From Isurus oxyrinchus (taxonomy: Eukaryota), in the NCBI GenBank assembly GCA_026770705.1, contig JANJGN010000021.1, positions 29,388,001 through 29,452,000 of the forward strand: DNA of 64,000 bases, written 5' to 3'. Shown here in pieces: positions 7,518-56,654 of the stretch; the stretch's first letter is position 1, and each line of letters begins with the position of its first letter. Below the pieces are notes generated by a model. That model saw only the letters and a list, made by a program, of their open reading frames with translations. It was not told the DNA's origin and searched no databases. The position numbers were made by a program, and so were the translations under genes.

Positions 7518-10500
7518 TGAGGCATTTGGCGCACTTTTTCTCCACCGATTTGAGGCTTTTCAATTCACCTGTAATCATTTCATACCGCAATTCACCAGCT
7601 ATTTGACCGCACCAAATCTATTCTCTTGCTTGGAAGGCTGTGACAACCTAAGGTTTTGGCAAACCTTCTTTTTAAACTTATTCAGTGGTTTTCAGTGCAT
7701 TAATTTGCAGTTGTTTCACAAATTGAAATTAACTCGTGGACAGTTTGCCATGAATTGAGGTAATTTCTGTTTTGTATCCCCTTGTAAATACCACAAAATT
7801 TTCACTTGTTCTTTGATTTTTTCTTTAAAAATAGGAAAAAAGTGTTCCCACTTTTAAGCAAAGCCCATTCTATTAGAAGTGAATTGTTATTAGACAACTT
7901 CGTATTTCTTCTCCGTGAATTAGGATATCAGGAAATACAGTCAGTTTATTAATGAACTTCGAGCTTTAATAGGGGGCTCATTTTAAACCTGAACTCAAAT
8001 TACTTACACTGCCTTGTGGCATTTCCCTTTTCCTCCCGATTCTCTCCTGCTTTGCCGATTTTCAAAAAGGAAACAAATTTCTAACCACTTGTAGAATGAG
8101 GAAGGATTCCATTCCCTTTACGGCTTCGTAGCAACATATTCTGAAGTGAATTATAATTACAGAGAAACTGATGCTTCTTTTATAGTGTGGGTGAAGATTA
8201 TGTTTGAGCCGTTATTCATAGATTTTTTTTTTAATTCGCATACATCTTTAATCTGGGCCGACTTTAAGGTTTCACTTTGATGACTGACCTCCCCTCTTTT
8301 GTTGGATCCATTAGGATCTTGCCGCCTTTTTATTAAAGGACTCCCTCATCTTCTGTAAACGGCCCACGGTCTGTTAGAATTATAATTTTTCTCAGTAACC
8401 ATTCCACAAAATTATCCAAATACACAAGAACAACAACAAAAAAGAGCGATAGCTCTGAAGTTCCGACGTGCAATAAGTTTTTTTAAAAAATCGCAAGCTG
8501 TCTGCAGGAGGTGAAGACACCGATTGGAAGATAAGCAGAAGAGTTGTTTTTCAAATTGGCCTTATCTTTTAAATCGTTGCAAGTAAATGCTACGGCTTAT
8601 TTATTCAGAAATTAATTTCTGCCTACGTTTTGCACCATATATTAATTTTGCATTCAGAATGGTCCATAATGACCATTCACATTTGCCTTTTTAAGAGGGA
8701 CCACCTGTAACAAAATAGCCATCACATACAAAGCATATGCTCTTAAATAATATAAATCACCACAGTACAAATATGTTATTCAAAATTTAGCTGTCTAATA
8801 CCCTTAAAGCACATGAATTCTGGGTACCTTAAGAGTATCAGCTTCAATCTGTTTTCATGCACATCTATTTGTTCTCATGCAAGATATGATCTTTTGCAGT
8901 TAAAGCCATTTATGAAAGCAAGAAAATGTAAGATTGTTACCATAAGAAAACTGGCATGTAATTTAAGTCATAAATATGGTTTAGGAAATATTTAAGCAGG
9001 AAGGGCAATGTTTTATTAACTGTATGATGCATTGCTAGGAGACAATTTCCTTAGTAAGAGCTCTGCGTAGACACAATTCTTTCACTAGCCAGTTGTGCAA
9101 ATGTTGATGCCTTTTTTAAATTCATCCATGGGATCTTGCCATCACTGGCAAGGCCTGCACTTATTTCCCATTCCTAATTGCCCTTACACAGGCAACTGTG
9201 AACCTGACCTTGGATTTCATTTCTGCTTCTCAATTATTGGTACATATTTTAGAATATTCCTGCTGGACTACATCTGCTGTTTAATCAGCATTCCATTCAC
9301 AAAGTGCCACACAAAATTTATTAAAATCTGATTTTTGCATCCGCATAAAAACTTAATGCAACCCCCAGGTTAGATTTAGATTTTTATTCCCTTATAATTA
9401 GCATTACCAATACTTCACAACTGTGCTTAATTCTGAAAACTGTGAAGGATTTGACCAAATAAGGATAATTTTTAAATTTACTTTAATGACACCATTATTC
9501 AAAAAAAATCCTTTACTGATAATTGAAAAATGCTTTGGATTTTGTGACCAGGTGCATTTTGCAGCCAAAGCATTGAAAATAATTTCAATATTTAGTCTTT
9601 CCATTTACAGGAGATGCTGTAGAATAACACATCCAAGGTAATTTTAGTCAAAATAAATGCAAGAATAGGACAGTGGCTGGAAGCCTTTGAAGTACATTTG
9701 TGTACATTCATAGCAGTTGCTTATTTTTTAAAAAATTGTACATGGAGGCAGTGGCCCCTTTCACTGTATTTTGCTTATTCAGTTTTACAATTCCAATTCT
9801 CTTAATTGTGTCTGTAGAACGCATTTCTATAACTCACACATAGGAACCACAAAAGAATATTCAGTTCTAATGAGTTAGCAATAATTGACAGGTGTATTCT
9901 TTTAATGCTTGGAAAAGTTTTTTTTAAGCTTTTCCAAAAAAGTGAACAGATTCAGGCAAATAGGCAAATACTGTATTTACTTATATAATTGTAGTGTTTG
10001 AACATAATGTGAAGCAACTCGTAGCTAGGAAAAACAAAAACTCCAGATGAACATTGTATATAAAGAACCTAACCTGAAATTATATAATATAAAATTATAC
10101 ACAGAAGGAAATTTTAAACAATCAATTGATTTTGACATAGAACAATTTCAGCAATTAAACTGACTTGTAAACATAGTATTTGATCTCTTGGCTCAAACAT
10201 GAATATTATTTTGTAAATTTGACGTGAACAAAAAAATGTTCAGAAAACCTTTAAATTAGAAAATGTAGGAATTATTTCCGTTTTTTAATCTGCTGAAACC
10301 ACCAAAAGTATTATTTAACTTTCAAAGGTAGTCTGTAAATAAAGATACACTTGCACATTTTTTTTGTAAAAAATACACTGGTTTAAAATTAATCTTAATG
10401 CAAATTCTATTACATCTATCTAGTATTATGGCACAGTTTTTAATGCTGGGATTATTGCTGTTTGTTCAGTGACCTTACTATTCTATTAGTATACACTAGT

Positions 10501-15380: not shown

Positions 15381-16152
15381 CAATTAGTCAGGGATAAACA
15401 CTTGTCAAATAGTTACAAAGTTGTTTATTTATTTTCTTATGTGGTTGTTGCACTATTTGGAGAACTCAACAAGTCATTTCGTATTTTTCAAACATACCAC
15501 TATGGAACACAGAAAATTGCAAGTTTTTAGAAAACTCCTTTAAATATTATTTTCGTTGGACATCTGTGGCCTAACTGGGAATATAATCCTGTTCATAATA
15601 ATAGTAATAATATAATATTATTATATTATATAATATAATAATTAAAAAGTCAGGTCTAAGTATGTAGTAATTTGGAAAAGGATAGGAAACCAGTTTAGGA
15701 AAAGCATACCTCTTTACCAGCACAAAGAAAGTTCAGAAAATGCCATTTTCTGTGAGTGCCAGTGAGATGTTATGAAATGCCTCACTTTTCTTGTGGATAA
15801 AAGAATGCTTCAAGCAGACAGTCATGGATAAGAAAGTGTTTATTCCATCATTTGCAGTTGTGTTGCGAGTGTAGAACCTAGGCCAGGCTTGGTGCTGGCT
15901 GTGACTGGTGATGGTGACATGATAATTTGACGTAAGGGACTTGATTTAACCTAAGTAAATTATTGCCTGGCTGTCCAATGAAAAGGAATAAAGGAATTTT
16001 CTGAAAAAATTGCAGATTTTCTGTGTTCCATAGTGGTATGTTTGAAAAATACAGAATGACTTGTTGAGCTCTCCAAACAGTGCAACACCCACATAAGAAA
16101 ATAAATAAATCACTTTGTAACTATACAACAAGTGTTTATCCCTGACTAATTG
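15381..16152. repeat. Long inverted repeat, ~180-bp arms (15381-15562 / 15972-16152), 409-bp spacer
   Basis: Arms are reverse complements at roughly 85% identity by eye, including a 36-nt exact match GTATTTTTCAAACATACCACTATGGAACACAGAAAA. Confidence 0.9.
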
Positions 16153-39554: not shown

Positions 39555-40552
39555 ACCAGCCTCCACATTCAAAGGATCATCCTCCACCATTTCTTCCACC
39601 TCCATCGTGGTGCCACTGCCAAACACATCTTCCCCTCCCCTCCCTTGTCACCGTTACCTCTCCAACACCTGGGTTCACTCCTCAGTCACCCCTAACTCCT
39701 CATCCCCTTCCCACCGCACCTTCCCATGCAATCGCAGAAGGTGTAACACCTGCCCCTTTTACCTCCTCGCTCCTCGCCGTCCAAGAGCCCAAACATTCCT
39801 TCCAGGTGAAGCAGTGATTTCCGTGTACTTCTTTCAATTTAGTATGCTATATTCACTGCTCAGAAGACACAGTCTCCTCCACAGTGGGGACTCTAACTAT
39901 GTAAATTGGGTGACTGCTTTGCGGAACACCTCTGCTCAGTCTGCAACTGGCTTAGCTTCTGGGTGCTTACTACTTTAGTTCACCATCTTGCTCTGTCACT
40001 TCCGTCTCCGGCCTGCTGCAGTGTTCCACTGAAGCTCAGTGCACACTCAAGGAAACAGCACCTCATCTTCCAAATAGGCACCTTACAGCCTTTTGGTCTC
40101 AAAGTTGTGTTCAACAATTTCAGCCCATGAACTCATGTTCCCCATTTTGATTCTGTTTCTTTTTCGCTGTGTCCCAGTCTGAATCCTGTTTCTCGTTATT
40201 TTGCTTTTGGACAGAGTTGTTCATTATTCTGCCATTTACACTCACTCTGGACAAATGCTTTGTTTCTTTACTACAATCATTACCACTTCCTTTGCCTTTT
40301 ATTCCATAGCATCTTTGTCATTTACTCTCTCCCACTCTCTACCCTTTCCCAGACCTTCCCTTTTAATCTCCCCCTTCAATGACATAAATCCCATCACATT
40401 TCTACCTTCCTTCAGTTCTGAAGAAGAATCTTGTTCAACTCGAAACATTAACTCACTCTCTTTCTTCACAGATGCTGCCAGACCTGCTGAATATTTCCAA
40501 CACTTTGTTTTTAGTTCAGATTTCCAGCAACCGCAATATTTTGCTTTGATTT
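39555..40552 (+). mobile_element. Penelope-like element, decayed GIY-YIG endonuclease region plus 3' UTR/pLTR
   Basis: Frameshifted peptides SLHIQRIILHHF..KHIFPSPP, TFPCNRRRCNTCPF, LGDCFAEHL, QHLIFQIGTLQP.GL..VFNNF. Followed by a hammerhead-like motif and the GATGCTGCCAGACCTGCTG tail. Confidence 0.85.
40413..40454 (+). ncRNA. Degenerate minimal hammerhead ribozyme (PLE)
   Basis: CAGTT-CTGAAGA-...-GAAAC-ATT-AACT. Core is present; stem II and the stem III palindrome are damaged. Confidence 0.55.
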
Positions 40553-50039: not shown

Positions 50040-51343
50040 TTTCCTCAGTCTTGCATGCTGTCTGGATATAATCAACTTTCCCAACGGCCTAGCACTTTGA
50101 CTGGAAATGAGGATATTTAAATGGTTGGTGGCTACCATGGCAATGGTAACATGTAAATTTCTGAGTCTAGAACTGTGAACTTGGCTGCTGTGAGCTGAAT
50201 CTTGTTGAAATCTGGTGTACCGCCCATGCTGGCTCAGGCAGAGAACTTACTTGCACACTGCAACTCTCTCTTTCTGCCATTTCCATTGCTGTGGCCTCAT
50301 CACAGGTCTCTTTTGAAGTCAGCTTATTGCTTTTGCCCAAAATCTTTGCCTGGATTTTATTGTTCTTTAGACCTCCTGCAAATGTGTCTCTAAGGTTGAT
50401 TAAGTTCACGCCATATCCACAGTGGCGAGAGTGTTTCTTCAATTCAAGAATGTAATCTGCAGCAGGCTCACTTGGCAACTCTCAATGCAAAAACAGAATT
50501 ACCTGGAAAAACTCAGCAGGTCCGGCAGCATCAGCGGAGAAGAAAAGAGTTGACGTTTCGAGTCCTCATGACCCTTCGACAGAACTGTCGAAGGGTCATG
50601 AGGACTCGAAACGTCAACTCTTTTCTTCTCCGCTGATGCTGCCGGACCTGCTGAGTTTTTCCAGGTAATTCTGTTTTTGTTTTGGATTTCCAGCATCTGC
50701 AGTTTTTTTGTTTTTAACTCTCAATGCAATCTCATTCTCAGTCATGCCATGAGTCCAGAATCTCATTAATTCTAGCATATTCTATGGTACTGGGGTCTTG
50801 CAGGCAACACTGGATTGACACCACCCCAAAAGCATCTGGCCGCATTTTGATGAAGAAAACATTTACTTTATTCTCATTTCCTATTTTATTCATTTTCGGC
50901 CAAATGTGTAACCTTCATTCCTAATTACACCTGTCCTCTTTGTTCGGGTTGAATTCCCCCGTTGTCCCCAAATATGCCTTCAATGCCATTTTTTTTCAGT
51001 TACATACAGCGGTGGCTCACTGTGTACGTGATCACAATGTTCAATGTACACAATCTTTCAAATTGTTCAAACTTCCTCAGAATCAACTATCGGAGTTCCA
51101 AAAATGTGACACAATCTTCTTCAGGTCTTAATTTCTCAAATGAAACGTAATGTAAAAGAAAATTCCATCCCAGCTTTATCGTCATCTTTTTGTTGTGTAT
51201 TGAACTAAGCAAGACTAGCTCAGCTGCAGGTAGCTATTATCGAATTAACTTTATTAACACCTGCACAGTAGAGGGCACAGCAGAGAGGGCAACAAAAAAA
51301 GAAATTCTCAGTTCGAGCAACAGGTTTATATGCTGTTGTTACA
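50040..51343 (-). mobile_element. Decayed Gypsy-like LTR retrotransposon 5' portion (putative LTR end plus gag pseudogene)
   Basis: Minus-strand peptides GIFGDNGEFNPNKED, KVNVF, PSTIEYARINEIL, EPAADYILELKKHSRHCGY..LRDTFAGGLKNNKIQAKIL, and a zinc-knuckle remnant CYHCHGSH...C*AVGKVDYIQTAC. Upstream TG...CA segment 51343-51191 has TATAAA and AATAAA. Confidence 0.75.
50491..50715. mobile_element. Palindromic PLE-derived insertion (perfect 95-bp arms, 2-nt loop, 36-nt tail) with 14-bp TSD
   Basis: 50488-50582 is the exact reverse complement of 50585-50679. TSD AACTCTCAATGCAA at 50477-50490 and 50716-50729. Confidence 0.93.
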
Positions 51344-51402
51344 CTGGAACTTAAGTGCAGAATGGAATCCTATGCTAGAAAATGTCCGGTGTTAGGAGGA
51401 AC

Positions 51403-51998
51403 AAAAACAGAAAATGCTGGAAAAACTCAGCCGGTCTGACAGCATCTGTGGGAGGAGAAACAGAGTTAATGTTTCAGTCTGTATGGCCCTTCTTCAGAGC
51501 TAAAGAGAATTAGAAATGAAATGAAATTTATACTGTTTAAGGGGAGTGGAGCAGGTGAAGCTGGATAGAAGGCCAGTGATAGGTAGGGGTAAAGGAGAGA
51601 TTGACAAAGATGTTGTGAACAAAAAGGACAAAGGGAATGTTAATGGTAGTGGTAAGGGCTCAAAAAAGATGCTGATAGTGGCAAAGGTAAGAAAGCAGAA
51701 TGTGATAATAGCAGGACAAGGGTAAGCACTCTGAAAAGAACAACATGAACATGCAATAGATGGCCCTTGTGGGGGTGGGGTGGGGGGGGGGAAGGTCAAT
51801 GATGGCAAAAAAGGATGGAGAATGGGATAAAAAGGGGAATAAAAAAGGGGTTAGAACAATGAATAAAAATGAAAATAAAAAATAATTTAAAAAATTAAAA
51901 TAAGCGGATAAAAAATAAAAATGAATTTTGAAAAAAGGGATTAAAAAAGGGGGTGAAGATAGAGGGGAGAGTTCATGGTCTGAAGTTGTTGAACTCAA
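51403..51998 (-). mobile_element. 5'-truncated PLE 3' end with 13-bp TSD
   Basis: Minus strand starts with the ORF end IEFNNFRP* then the 3' UTR. TSD TGTTAGGAGGAAC at 51390-51402 and 51999-52011. Confidence 0.88.
51463..51503 (-). ncRNA. Minimal hammerhead ribozyme motif (partly decayed)
   Basis: Minus strand: TAGCT-CTGAAGA-AGGGCC-ATACA-GACT-GAAAC-ATT-AACTC. Confidence 0.55.
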
Positions 51999-53693: not shown

Positions 53694-53950
53694 TGTTGTA
53701 TTACTCGAGAACTGTCTTCTCACAAATTGTTAATCACGCTTATGTACATGTTGTCAGGAATCATGTTCCTTTTTTATGACATACCCACCCGATGATTGAT
53801 GAATGTGTCTGTCACTCCATGAATCAGGCAGGCAGCAAGGTTTAATGTTTGTTCATCCCAATAAAATGAAAGAATAGTGGCATTTGCTTAATAACCCAGA
53901 GAAAGAGAGATATTCTTTCACAGTTAGTGCATGTTTAAAATCTAACAGCT

Positions 53951-54163
53951 TCACGAAAATGAAAGCAAAATACTGCGGATGCCGGAAATCTGAAATAAAA
54001 ATAGAAAATGCTGGTAAAACTCAGCAGGTCTGGCAGCATCTGTGGAGACAGAAACAGTTAGTGTTTTGAGTCCGTACGACTCTCATACGGATTTGAAGCA
54101 TTAACTCTGTTTCCCTCTCCACAGATGTTGCCAGACCTGCTGAGTTTTTCCAGCATTTTCTAT
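53951..54163. mobile_element. Older palindromic PLE-derived insertion with 10-bp TSD
   Basis: Imperfect arms (AATAGAAAATGCTGG...GAGTCCGTA / TACGGATTT...CCAGCATTTTCTATT). TSD TCTAACAGCT at 53941-53950 and 54164-54173. Confidence 0.88.
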
Positions 54164-55675
54164 TCTAACAGCTGCATAGTTCGACCAAAAGCAGAGACAT
54201 TTAAAAATCCTTAGAGCTTTTTAAAAGCAGATCAATGAAATGTTACTTGCAATCCCTACACACAACCTCCCCTCCGCCCCCCGCATACACTCCTCTCCTG
54301 TCCAAATATTTACTGCACACTTCAAGTTACACTCACTTAAAATTAGAATGGAAATGAAGCTCTTTCTCCTTCTCAGGATAATTTTTCTTTTGTCTCATGC
54401 AAAACAAAGTGGGTTAAGACACTACAGTCATCTCTGGAACCTTAGTTTGAATTGAACCAAAGCAGAGGATATATTCACCATCTCTCACTAACTGGTGGCC
54501 GTACAAGCACTGTCTTCTCACCTCCAGAACCTCAGTTTGAATGTATCCTCAAAAGTAGGGCTATGGTAAACTGGAGAGCATCCTAAATACTGTTTGTTCG
54601 CCTCTGAGACCTTGGAAATTAGGGATGGAAAGTCTTTTTCTCTCCTAAATAAAATGAGCTAGTAAGTACTTGCAGTGCTAAAGTGATAAACTGGGGGACC
54701 AAAGTTTAAGTCTTATTTTTGACTGGCATTTGGCCTCAGGCTTGCCGCAAGAGAATGTACCAATTCTGACTGGTCAGCCAGGCGAGATTTGGGTGGAGAA
54801 TGTGCTCCATTCACATCCTGCTCAAGGACATGCGCTGATGTATTGCCTACAGAGCAGCATTAACAGAGCGTATGGAAATTCTATAACCTGCTCTTTTTCT
54901 TTCTTTTGAAAAAGATACTGCATGTGCCTGTGTTTCTCAGTGCGTACACGTGTGCGCGTGCGCAAGTGAAAGAGCCTGTCCAAAAAGTCATTTCCGTTCT
55001 CATTGCACAAATGTTCCCTCAAATTAAACATTTACTAGGACTAAAGTAACATAAGAAGATTCAAACTAAAAATGAATACGGCTTGAATGTTTAACTGGGT
55101 GGGAGCCAAAACAGTGGAATTAGTTGCCTGACTAAACTCAAAAAGTTATTTCCACAAAATGGGCCGCTGACCAATGTGGTTAGGTTACAGTTACCATTAT
55201 GTTAATAGTCCAGGTAAGGTATTTATCTCTTAGGTTGTGTGTAATTCATGTGTGTGCCGTGACCTGGTCAGAAACAAAAATCCGCCAGTGCTGGGGTCCT
55301 ACTCATTGCTTTAATTTTAGGTCTCTTTGTGCTCAAACAAGCAATTGTTATCACCTATCATCTCCCTCTAATCTGAGACTACACTGAAAAGCTGTATTTT
55401 TTTTATTGGCTTTTAAGAAAGAGCTTTGTGGTGAAGGGCAGTTTCAACTCAATTTATTTATTAGCAGAATTACCTACTTCCATCAAACAAGATCAGTGCA
55501 TTTTGAGAAATTGGCAGTTCTTTATCATCAAAAGATATCACCAAACGTAAATTTGAAACGAAATGATTTCAGAAACTAATGAAAAGCAAAATACCGCAGA
55601 TGCTGGAAATCTGAAACAAAAACAAAAAGAGCTGGAAAAACTCAGCAGGTCTGACAGCATCTGCGGCGAGGAACA

Positions 55676-55716
55676 CAGTTAACGTTTCGAGTCTGTATGG
55701 CTCTTCATCAGAACTA
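55676..55716 (-). ncRNA. Minimal type I hammerhead ribozyme with intact core
   Basis: Minus strand: TAGTT-CTGATGA-A-GAGCC-ATACA-GACTC-GAAAC-GTT-AACTG. Stem I TAGTT/AACTG, stem II GAG.C/G.CTC, palindromic ACGT stem III. Confidence 0.75.
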
Positions 55717-56194
55717 AACAAATATAGAAATGTGGTGAAATATAAGATGGTTGAGGGGGTGGGACAGCCTTCTCGACTTAACATTGAGTTCAACAACTTC
55801 AGATCATGAACTCTCTTCTCCATCCCCACCCCCTTTTCAATCCCCCTTTTTCCAATAATTTATATTTTTTAAATATATTTTTCTTTTCCCACCTATTTTT
55901 AAATTTATTTCGATCTATCATTTTATCTCCACCTTTTAGCCCATTTCAATCCCTTCCCCCCACCCCACCCCCACTAGGGCCATCTGCCACTTGTTTGTCC
56001 TGCTTTCTACCCTTAATGTCACCATTAGCACATTCCTCAGCTAATATCACCACTCTCAACATCCCTTTGTCCTTTTGTCTACGACATCTTTGGCAATCTC
56101 TTCTTTGCCTCCACCTATCACTGGCCCTCTATCCAGCTCTACCTGTCCCACCCCCCTCATCCAGCTTATATTTCGCCTCATTTCTATATTTCTT

Positions 56195-56235
56195 TAGTTC
56201 TGATGAAGAGTCATATGGACTCAAAACATTAACTG
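56195..56235 (+). ncRNA. Hammerhead motif with inactivating core change
   Basis: TAGTT-CTGATGA-A-GAGTC-ATATG-GACTC-AAAAC-ATT-AACTG. CGAAACG has become CAAAACA, consistent with CpG decay. Confidence 0.6.
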
Positions 56236-56654
56236 TATTCCTCTCCGCAGATACTGTCAGACCTGCTGAGTTTTTCCAGCTATTTTTTTGTTTCAGAAAC
56301 TAGTGAGTCAGTTTGGCAAAGCTCACTGAACTGGTGTGTATTGGTAATGTGATTTATTTACAAAATTCGCCTTGCGTTTCTGTTGATGATAGTAGTTTCC
56401 AGAGTTGCATAGCGCTGAATGAATGGCTGCCTTTGGAATGACTGTTTGTGTGATTGCATCACTGCAGAATATTTCAGAGAACCAGTGAATAAAATACTGG
56501 AAATGTACAAGATTGTCAGGATCTCCATAAGATATGAAACATGGAAACATAATGAATGGGAAACAATGACATGAAAAGTTGTCAGGTCTGTGGAACTTTG
56601 AAGTGATTGATCCAGACTAACATGTGGCAAAACAATCTGGTTTGGCAACCATAT

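What the first reader, a model, noticed from the sequence alone, without database searches (positions are those of the whole stretch)
50477..50729. Perfect 192-bp palindrome centred on the start of a variant hammerhead core (CUGUCGA)
Seen: 95-bp arms with no mismatch and a 2-nt loop (AA 50583-50584), a 36-nt unpaired tail and a 14-bp TSD, implying a very young insertion. Both strands read CTGTCGA-AGGGTC-ATGAG-GACTC-GAAAC-GTC-AACT right after the axis. This has a canonical GUC cleavage triplet but U at the normally invariant A6. Only the minus strand keeps stem I (AGTT/AACT). The axis is a CAG-AA-CTG microhomology. Inference: a possible cruciform in DNA and a 95-bp perfect dsRNA in the RUNX3 pre-mRNA. 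A6U in a young copy suggests a subfamily that transposes with a non-canonical or dead ribozyme.
Basis: partly seen in the sequence, partly recalled or inferred. Interest (0 to 1): 0.7.

Follow-up and report, generated by a model that had tools for sequence, protein, structure and literature searches.

The report
Penelope stub carrying U6 hammerhead variant
This perfect DNA palindrome is one of thousands of near-identical stubs likely left when a Penelope-type jumping gene folds back on itself during insertion; what is unusual is that the whole young family carries a hammerhead ribozyme with a changed core base (A6U) while likely selection has kept the rest of the ribozyme intact.

Summary
The palindrome is ordinary. 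It is a 5'-truncated, head-to-head insertion of a Penelope-like retroelement whose intact RT + GIY-YIG master lies elsewhere in the genome. 1,071 places share this axis and 8,104 have a junction within 30 nt. Inverted copy, tail and TSD are published PLE anatomy, and this scan met such stubs before in other genomes. Perfect arms are the norm (33 of 51), so they do not date this copy. U6 is not private: only 131 of 75,507 exact cores have A6, and the intact master has U6. Across a ladder of U6 subfamilies, changes hit free hammerhead positions (4 of 7) but not core or stems (0-1 of 31). So the fold looks selected although A6, required in published descriptors, is gone. Whether it cuts is untested; in this copy the 95-bp hairpin is predicted to bury both motifs. 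Junctions pile up 0-15 nt upstream of the core, about 18-fold above the next zone, likely at the RNA 5' end, and not at the cleavage site. No RUNX-specific role is supported.

The parts
50477..50490 (+). left target-site duplication (14 bp); last 3 nt also match the end of the short arm
50488..50582 (-). short inverted arm: pLTR positions +1 to +95 of the Penelope-like element, no tail
50548..50586 (-). minimal type I hammerhead motif with U6 and native stem I (AGUU/AACU); predicted cut after 50552
   Evidence: sequence; native upstream; min-HHR consensus; cut site inferred
50583..50584 (.). 2-nt loop at the head-to-head junction (AG/CT microhomology), shared by 1,071 places
50585..50619 (+). 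second U6 hammerhead motif, lacking the 5' strand of stem I
50585..50679 (+). long arm, paired part: pLTR +1 to +95
50680..50715 (+). 36-nt PLE tail (+96 to +131); in masters it runs on into the 5' UTR and ORF
50716..50729 (+). right target-site duplication (14 bp)

Best explanation
Shown: parent element, copy numbers, two preferred 3' ends (about +97 and +131), junction hotspot at 0 to -15, U6 throughout the young lineage, changes confined to free positions. Inferred: the endonuclease nicks both strands about 14 bp apart. One nick primes cDNA near +97 and the other near +131, which defines the tail. One cDNA reaches the template end near -5 (likely the transcript start, about 30 nt below a conserved TATA-like box), self-primes at AG/CT, copies itself and anneals to the other cDNA. 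Either cDNA can fold, which gives tail-left and tail-right forms about equally. The U6 ribozyme most likely cleaves weakly or only with help (dimer, element protein, metal), and insertion uses uncut RNA. This copy is a dead end: in pre-mRNA both motifs would be buried in the 95-bp hairpin.
For: Parent: tandem 3.35-kb units 99.5% identical, 926-aa ORF with RVT_1 (E 7e-8), YIDD, CX5CxxC linker and a GIY-YIG match (E 9e-4, below Pfam cut-off), each unit ending in the U6 pLTR. Axis shared by 1,071 places. In 51 loci (window plus the first 50 listed of 1,071) each has one tailed and one short arm, tail side 29:22 (p 0.40), short arm 92-102 nt in 34, TSD 12-16 bp in 46, arms identical in 33. Variants sit in both arms of a copy, and several haplotypes use the same axis, which points to repeated de novo formation. 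Junction zones: 302 (+30..+45), 698 (+17..+32), 2,148 (+3..+18), 8,104 (-15..+1), 456 (-32..-17). 36 of 101 arms end within 12 nt upstream of the core. In 4 of 30 loci two successive pieces both end at -2 to -17. TATATT lies 31-36 nt before the core in 64 of 64 copies where it was found. U6: 131 of 75,507 have A6. Constraint: 4 of 7 free versus 0 of 31 constrained positions changed (p 0.0005; 1 of 31, p 0.002, if a tie in a 4-copy subfamily counts), while upstream DNA changed about 0.24 per column. Literature: inverted copy plus 30-40 bp tail (PMC8557442, PMC3846280); two RT start sites define the tail, both strands are nicked, HHR cleavage is not needed for insertion (PMC11167929).
Against: No RNA data; transcript start and cleavage are untested. 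No cap-derived G was seen at -6. 18 of 30 ORF-bearing copies read through the hotspot, so longer templates are common. Zone counts use anchors that differ in length, CpG content and subfamily coverage, so the ratios are rough. The free/constrained classes were set after I had seen the sequences; subfamily samples are 3-14 copies; +51..+80 is almost as invariant as the hammerhead, so the constraint need not be catalytic. A6 versus U6 split has support 88/85 only, and the root is inferred. In a high-throughput study all CUGA mutants but the C3/G8 swap had low activity (PMC9901934, passages). PMC3846280 prefers self-priming on an antisense template for head-to-head forms.
Confidence: 0.8

Rival explanations
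1. Same origin of the palindrome, but the U6 hammerhead is catalytically dead; the sequence is kept because it doubles as promoter (initiator and downstream element) or as the RNA structure that the element's protein binds.
For: A6 changes lower activity (PMC3088659; A6C 3.6e-6 versus 0.30 per min at 0.3 mM Mg2+, PMC7151607). HHR mutants still insert in vitro (PMC11167929). No excess of 5' ends at the cut site: about 5-7 of 100 listed arms start at +32, counted by eye. +51..+80 is equally conserved. The Penelope promoter lies in the pLTR and has a downstream element (PMC2377424, passages).
Against: Changes fall on N7, H17 and loop II and spare G8, G12 and all stem pairs. Canonical A6 families also lack cut-site 5' ends (3 places in that zone versus 267 at the hotspot; anchors not equivalent), so the absence does not show death.
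Confidence: 0.4
2. The junction hotspot is a reverse-transcriptase stall at the base of the folded or protein-bound hammerhead, not the RNA 5' end.
For: The zone coincides with stem I and its predicted extension. Junction frequency already rises inside the core (2,148 at +3..+18). No cap-G signal. Many copies read through.
Against: A stall would be expected on the 3' side of the structure (+32..+45), where counts are lowest (302-698). The drop beyond -17 is sharp (456). The TATA-like box keeps its distance while the spacer sequence turns over.
Confidence: 0.3
3. The palindrome is a non-autonomous MITE-like or retrozyme-like element that spreads as a unit from a palindromic master.
For: 1,071 copies with the identical axis; near-constant size and TSD.
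Against: Tail on either side (29:22), short arm 34-105 nt, several source haplotypes with the same axis, a continuum of other junctions, the same axis in older A6 families. No tandem direct HHR repeats as in retrozymes.
Confidence: 0.07
4. This copy acts on its host gene through a DNA cruciform or a 95-bp dsRNA in the RUNX pre-mRNA.
For: Intronic position and a predicted perfect hairpin.
Against: More than 8,000 equivalent loci; an older head-to-head stub sits 3.4 kb away in the same intron; the site looks empty in a related organism (a hint only). No sign of locus-specific selection.
Confidence: 0.05

Closest known systems
Insertion units of endonuclease-positive Penelope-like elements: pLTR, adjacent inverted 5'-truncated copy, 30-40 bp tail, TSD (PMC8557442; PMC3846280)
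   Same: Head-to-head inverted pLTR, palindrome at the junction, 36-nt tail at one end, TSD, partial tandems, RT + C-terminal GIY-YIG master.
   Different: Reduced to the pLTR alone; junctions concentrate in a 15-nt zone just 5' of the hammerhead, counted here genome-wide; TSD mode 14 bp versus 8-10 bp in the rotifer examples.
Minimal type I hammerheads (min-HHR) of metazoan PLEs (Cervera and de la Pena 2014, PMC4209133)
   Same: 4-bp stem I, extra base after A9, G10.1-C11.1, 5-bp stem II, GAAA, palindromic ACGU in place of helix III, UH cut site; opposite-strand pairs were reported 100-700 bp apart.
   Different: U at position 6. All 56 representative motifs in their Fig. S3 have A6, though their descriptor required it; the reported core variant is U3-A8.
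Anolis Poseidon element PAc, in vitro (Frangieh et al. 2024, PMC11167929)
   Same: Two internal RT start sites bracket the tail; both strands nicked and extended; uncut RNA is the substrate.
   Different: PAc is Poseidon clade with its tail inside the ORF and priming without homology; here the linker is Neptune-type, the tail lies in the 5' UTR (first ATG at +171) and 32 of 48 short ends overlap the TSD by 1 nt or more (partly chance).
Natural A6C hammerhead of phage Bcep176 (PMC3088659; PMC7151607)
   Same: Natural pyrimidine at position 6 in an otherwise conserved core.
   Different: C rather than U; one phage locus, active and Mn2+-preferring, versus about 75,000 exact copies in a vertebrate, untested.
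Animal non-LTR retrozymes (bioRxiv 10.64898/2026.07.22.740005)
   Same: Short non-coding PLE-derived sequence with a type I hammerhead.
   Different: Retrozymes are tandem direct repeats; this is one inverted pair that does not appear to propagate as a unit.

Membership tests
EN+ Penelope-like element | Single ORF with RT and C-terminal GIY-YIG endonuclease in the autonomous partner | tested here: met
   926-aa ORF, RVT_1 above cut-off, GIY-YIG E 9e-4 (below cut-off) with YIGET motif
EN+ Penelope-like element | Tandem or partial-tandem units forming pLTRs | tested here: met
   3,353 and 3,340 bp units, 99.5% identical; 18 of 30 partial or full tandems
EN+ Penelope-like element | Inverted 5'-truncated copy, 30-40 bp tail at one end, TSD | tested here: met
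   window and 50 more loci
Neptune clade | CX2-5CxxC linker between RT and EN | tested here: met
   CPRKRCNTC at aa 792; the motif is shared with Nematis (PMC8557442)
Neptune clade | RT phylogeny with reference Neptune elements | not tested
   no reference sequences fetched
min-HHR (type I) | Core CUGANGA | tested here: not met
   CUGUCGA; A6 in 131 of 75,507
min-HHR (type I) | GAAA, NUH, stems I and II, extra base after A9, G10.1-C11.1, palindromic 15.2-16.2 | tested here: met
   native copies and minus arm; fold; consensus
min-HHR (type I) | Self-cleavage as dimer or with protein | not testable with these tools
   needs bench assay
Rfam hammerhead families | Score at gathering threshold | tested here: not met
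   0 matches in the window, including its A6 copies
Non-LTR retrozyme | At least two tandem direct units with a complete HHR | tested here: not met
   arrangement is inverted
MITE or palindromic master element | Fixed structure inherited from one master | tested here: not met
   tail on either side, variable arm, several haplotypes

The most novel reading that the evidence does not exclude
A natural U6 hammerhead (CUGUNGA) that still cleaves, as a dimer or with the element's protein or Mn2+, has been kept by selection through at least six successive master subfamilies of the dominant young Penelope lineage of this vertebrate genome (about 105,000 motif copies), invisible to CUGANGA-based searches; damping the ribozyme may favour uncut template and so the burst.
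Probability: 0.3. Interest if true: 0.65.

Novelty: new variant of a known kind. Interest (0 to 1): 0.42.

Why it matters
What hammerheads do in Penelope-like elements is stated as unclear in PMC8557442 and PMC4209133. This genome offers a natural experiment: one lineage lost A6, went on to make most of the intact-looking motif copies, and kept the rest of the fold. An assay of U6 against A6 is informative either way. Cleavage would add a core variant present in about 100,000 copies that standard descriptors miss. No cleavage would show that the fold is kept for a non-catalytic job. The thousands of junctions also map where reverse transcription ends, which tests models of PLE insertion. The single palindrome in the RUNX intron has no importance of its own.

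Tried and rejected
DNA search of the own genome with the long arm returned nothing because common words are skipped; patterns were used instead. Rfam: no match. Polymorphism within the species: the one run of the best-matching organism showed no listed piece across the junction, inconclusive; no RNA holder was listed. Cap-derived G before AAGTT: most Gs in the 100 listed matches of 2,354 come from self-templated CAGAA or GTCGAA overlaps, so no signal. 5' ends at the cleavage site as a sign of activity: no peak in U6 or A6 families, so it does not discriminate. A second, permuted hammerhead from the upstream GGACTCGAAATC copy: rejected by inspection, no stem I possible. A single-cDNA fold-back model: cannot give a tail on the second arm (29 of 51). 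Genome-wide counts linking 5' ends to ORF-bearing copies were not obtained; 30 loci were classified instead. Lunse et al. 2016 on PLE hammerhead variants is not held and may list position-6 variants; supplementary file 1 of PMC4209133 was not searchable. No earlier scan note by sequence or in this genome.

Full report
Observation. The palindrome is as described: perfect arms 50488-50582 and 50585-50679, loop AA, tail 50680-50715, 14-bp TSD. The last three bases of the left arm belong to the TSD. Native copies read TCAAGTT before the core, so the true microhomology at the axis is AG/CT, and the minus strand carries the native stem I. The element lies between RUNX exon-like stretches at about 43.7 and 60.2 kb on the + strand; the paralogue name RUNX3 and the host being a cartilaginous fish are recalled, not tested. 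Rfam finds nothing.

Parent. The 35-nt core with positions 6 and 7 left free has 75,507 exact matches in the 4.98-Gb genome (arms, not insertions). Some sit 3.35 kb apart. One such array has units 99.5% alike and an uninterrupted 926-aa ORF with RT (Pfam RVT_1, YIDD), a CX5CxxC linker and a GIY-YIG match below cut-off. This is an endonuclease-positive Penelope-like element with a Neptune-type linker. The window's arms are its pLTR, and the tail is the sequence that runs on to the 5' UTR.

The palindrome is a routine product. The identical 32-nt axis occurs at 1,071 places; head-to-head pairs with 0-30 nt between the cores at 8,104. I examined the window and the first 50 listed same-axis places. 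All 51 have one tailed and one short arm; the tail is right of the AA loop in 29 and left in 22 (p 0.40); the short arm is 34-105 nt, 92-102 in 34; the TSD is 12-16 bp in 46, mode 14; arms are identical in 33 and differ at two places or fewer in 48 (these loci were picked by an exact 32-mer, which favours young copies). Substitutions are shared by both arms of a copy, and several haplotypes, including the master's and the window's, use the same axis. Older A6 families form the same junctions, including CAG-AA-CTG (267 places). The palindrome is therefore built anew at many insertions and is not a unit that spreads. Craig et al. (PMC8557442, passages) and Arkhipova et al. (PMC3846280, passages) describe the inverted copy, junction palindromes and the 30-40 bp tail. 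Frangieh et al. (PMC11167929, parts 1-2 of 4, main results) show two RT start sites bracketing the tail, extension of both nicked strands, and no need for ribozyme cleavage. This scan noted such stubs in other genomes.

Where junctions fall. Counting head-to-head pairs with a 0-30 nt spacer at five anchors gives 302 (about +30..+45), 698 (+17..+32), 2,148 (+3..+18), 8,104 (-15..+1) and 456 (-32..-17) (anchors differ in CpG content and subfamily coverage). Of 101 arms in the first 4.4 Mb of one contig, 42 scored 12 nt or less of native upstream; six of these carry an older subfamily's upstream, leaving 36, against 5 at 13-30 nt. A TATATT box lies 31-36 nt before the core in 64 of 64 copies where it was found, while the spacer sequence turns over. 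In 4 of 30 ORF-bearing loci two successive pieces both stop at -2 to -17, but 18 of 30 read through. I infer that the zone is the RNA 5' end; a structural stall remains possible, and I found no cap-G signal. There is no peak at the cut site in U6 or A6 families.

U6. Of the 75,507 cores 131 have A6; 98 of the first 100 listed have T. With a looser motif, 6,177 of 111,301 have A6 (old copies are under-counted). A tree of 38 copies from upstream DNA that excludes the hammerhead (60 of 124 had enough length; thinned to 7 per group) gives a ladder from A6 copies with long end branches to the youngest U6C7 copies with the shortest. All 11 A6 rows lie on one side of a branch with support 88/85; the root is inferred. 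The path from that branch to the youngest group sums to about 0.24 changes per column (summed by hand). Over the same U6 series (72 of 78 copies staged, 3-14 per group), majority sequences change at N7, H17 and two loop II positions, and at none of 31 core and stem positions, or one if a tie among four copies counts (p 0.0005 and 0.002). The classes were set after seeing the data, and +51..+80 is as stable, so this shows constraint on the region with a hammerhead-shaped pattern, not catalysis. The native sequence folds into stems I and II, and ACGU can pair between two motifs. All 56 min-HHRs in Fig. S3 of PMC4209133 have A6 (main text parts 1-2 of 4 read). Natural A6C is weakly active and Mn2+-preferring (PMC3088659, PMC7151607, passages); CUGA mutants are generally poor (PMC9901934, passages). 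Searches for a U6 core in print (titles and counts only) showed none, but Lunse et al. 2016 was not available.

This copy. Its RNA is predicted to be one hairpin of about -198 kcal/mol on either strand, which would bury both motifs whatever stem I does. In three runs of a related organism a contig matches the left flank to the end of the TSD and then has 26-29 letters that do not lie on the element; the letters are not shown and are under the tool's 31-letter bar, so an empty site is a hint. Polymorphism within the species is unresolved.

Verdict. The palindrome is known PLE anatomy and a dead end. The family-wide U6 hammerhead with a conserved scaffold is a new variant worth one cheap assay. 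Interest 0.42.

Noticed in passing
window 53941-54173: Older head-to-head stub of the same element class in the same intron, junction inside the hammerhead, flanked by a 10-bp direct repeat.
   Followed up: partly
window 55582-56293; 51400-51492; 40438-40542: Older relatives with canonical CTGAWGA cores; the first is a head-to-head pair with 158-bp arms 88% alike.
   Followed up: partly
L028 1470-1500 and subfamilies S2-S6: The 25 nt upstream of the core turn stepwise into copies of downstream words (CAACTCTTTCTT and GGACTCGAAA); in the youngest subfamily this is predicted to extend stem I. Patchwork copying or selection is not resolved.
   Followed up: partly
L243, L245, L260, L268: Multi-jump insertions in which two successive pieces each end at -2 to -17, the inner one starting within the ORF region.
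   Followed up: partly
L046 (G000:C1:460500-470000); L256-L258: Near-identical tandem arrays of full-length units; in L046 one 926-aa ORF is uninterrupted, so the family is likely recently or still active.
   Followed up: partly
runs X5, X9, X13 (organism B): A related organism, about 96% alike in the flank, holds the same young pLTR haplotype at very high depth.
   Followed up: no
window 15617-15642: A 13-bp-arm perfect palindrome without loop, the next longest in the window.
   Followed up: no
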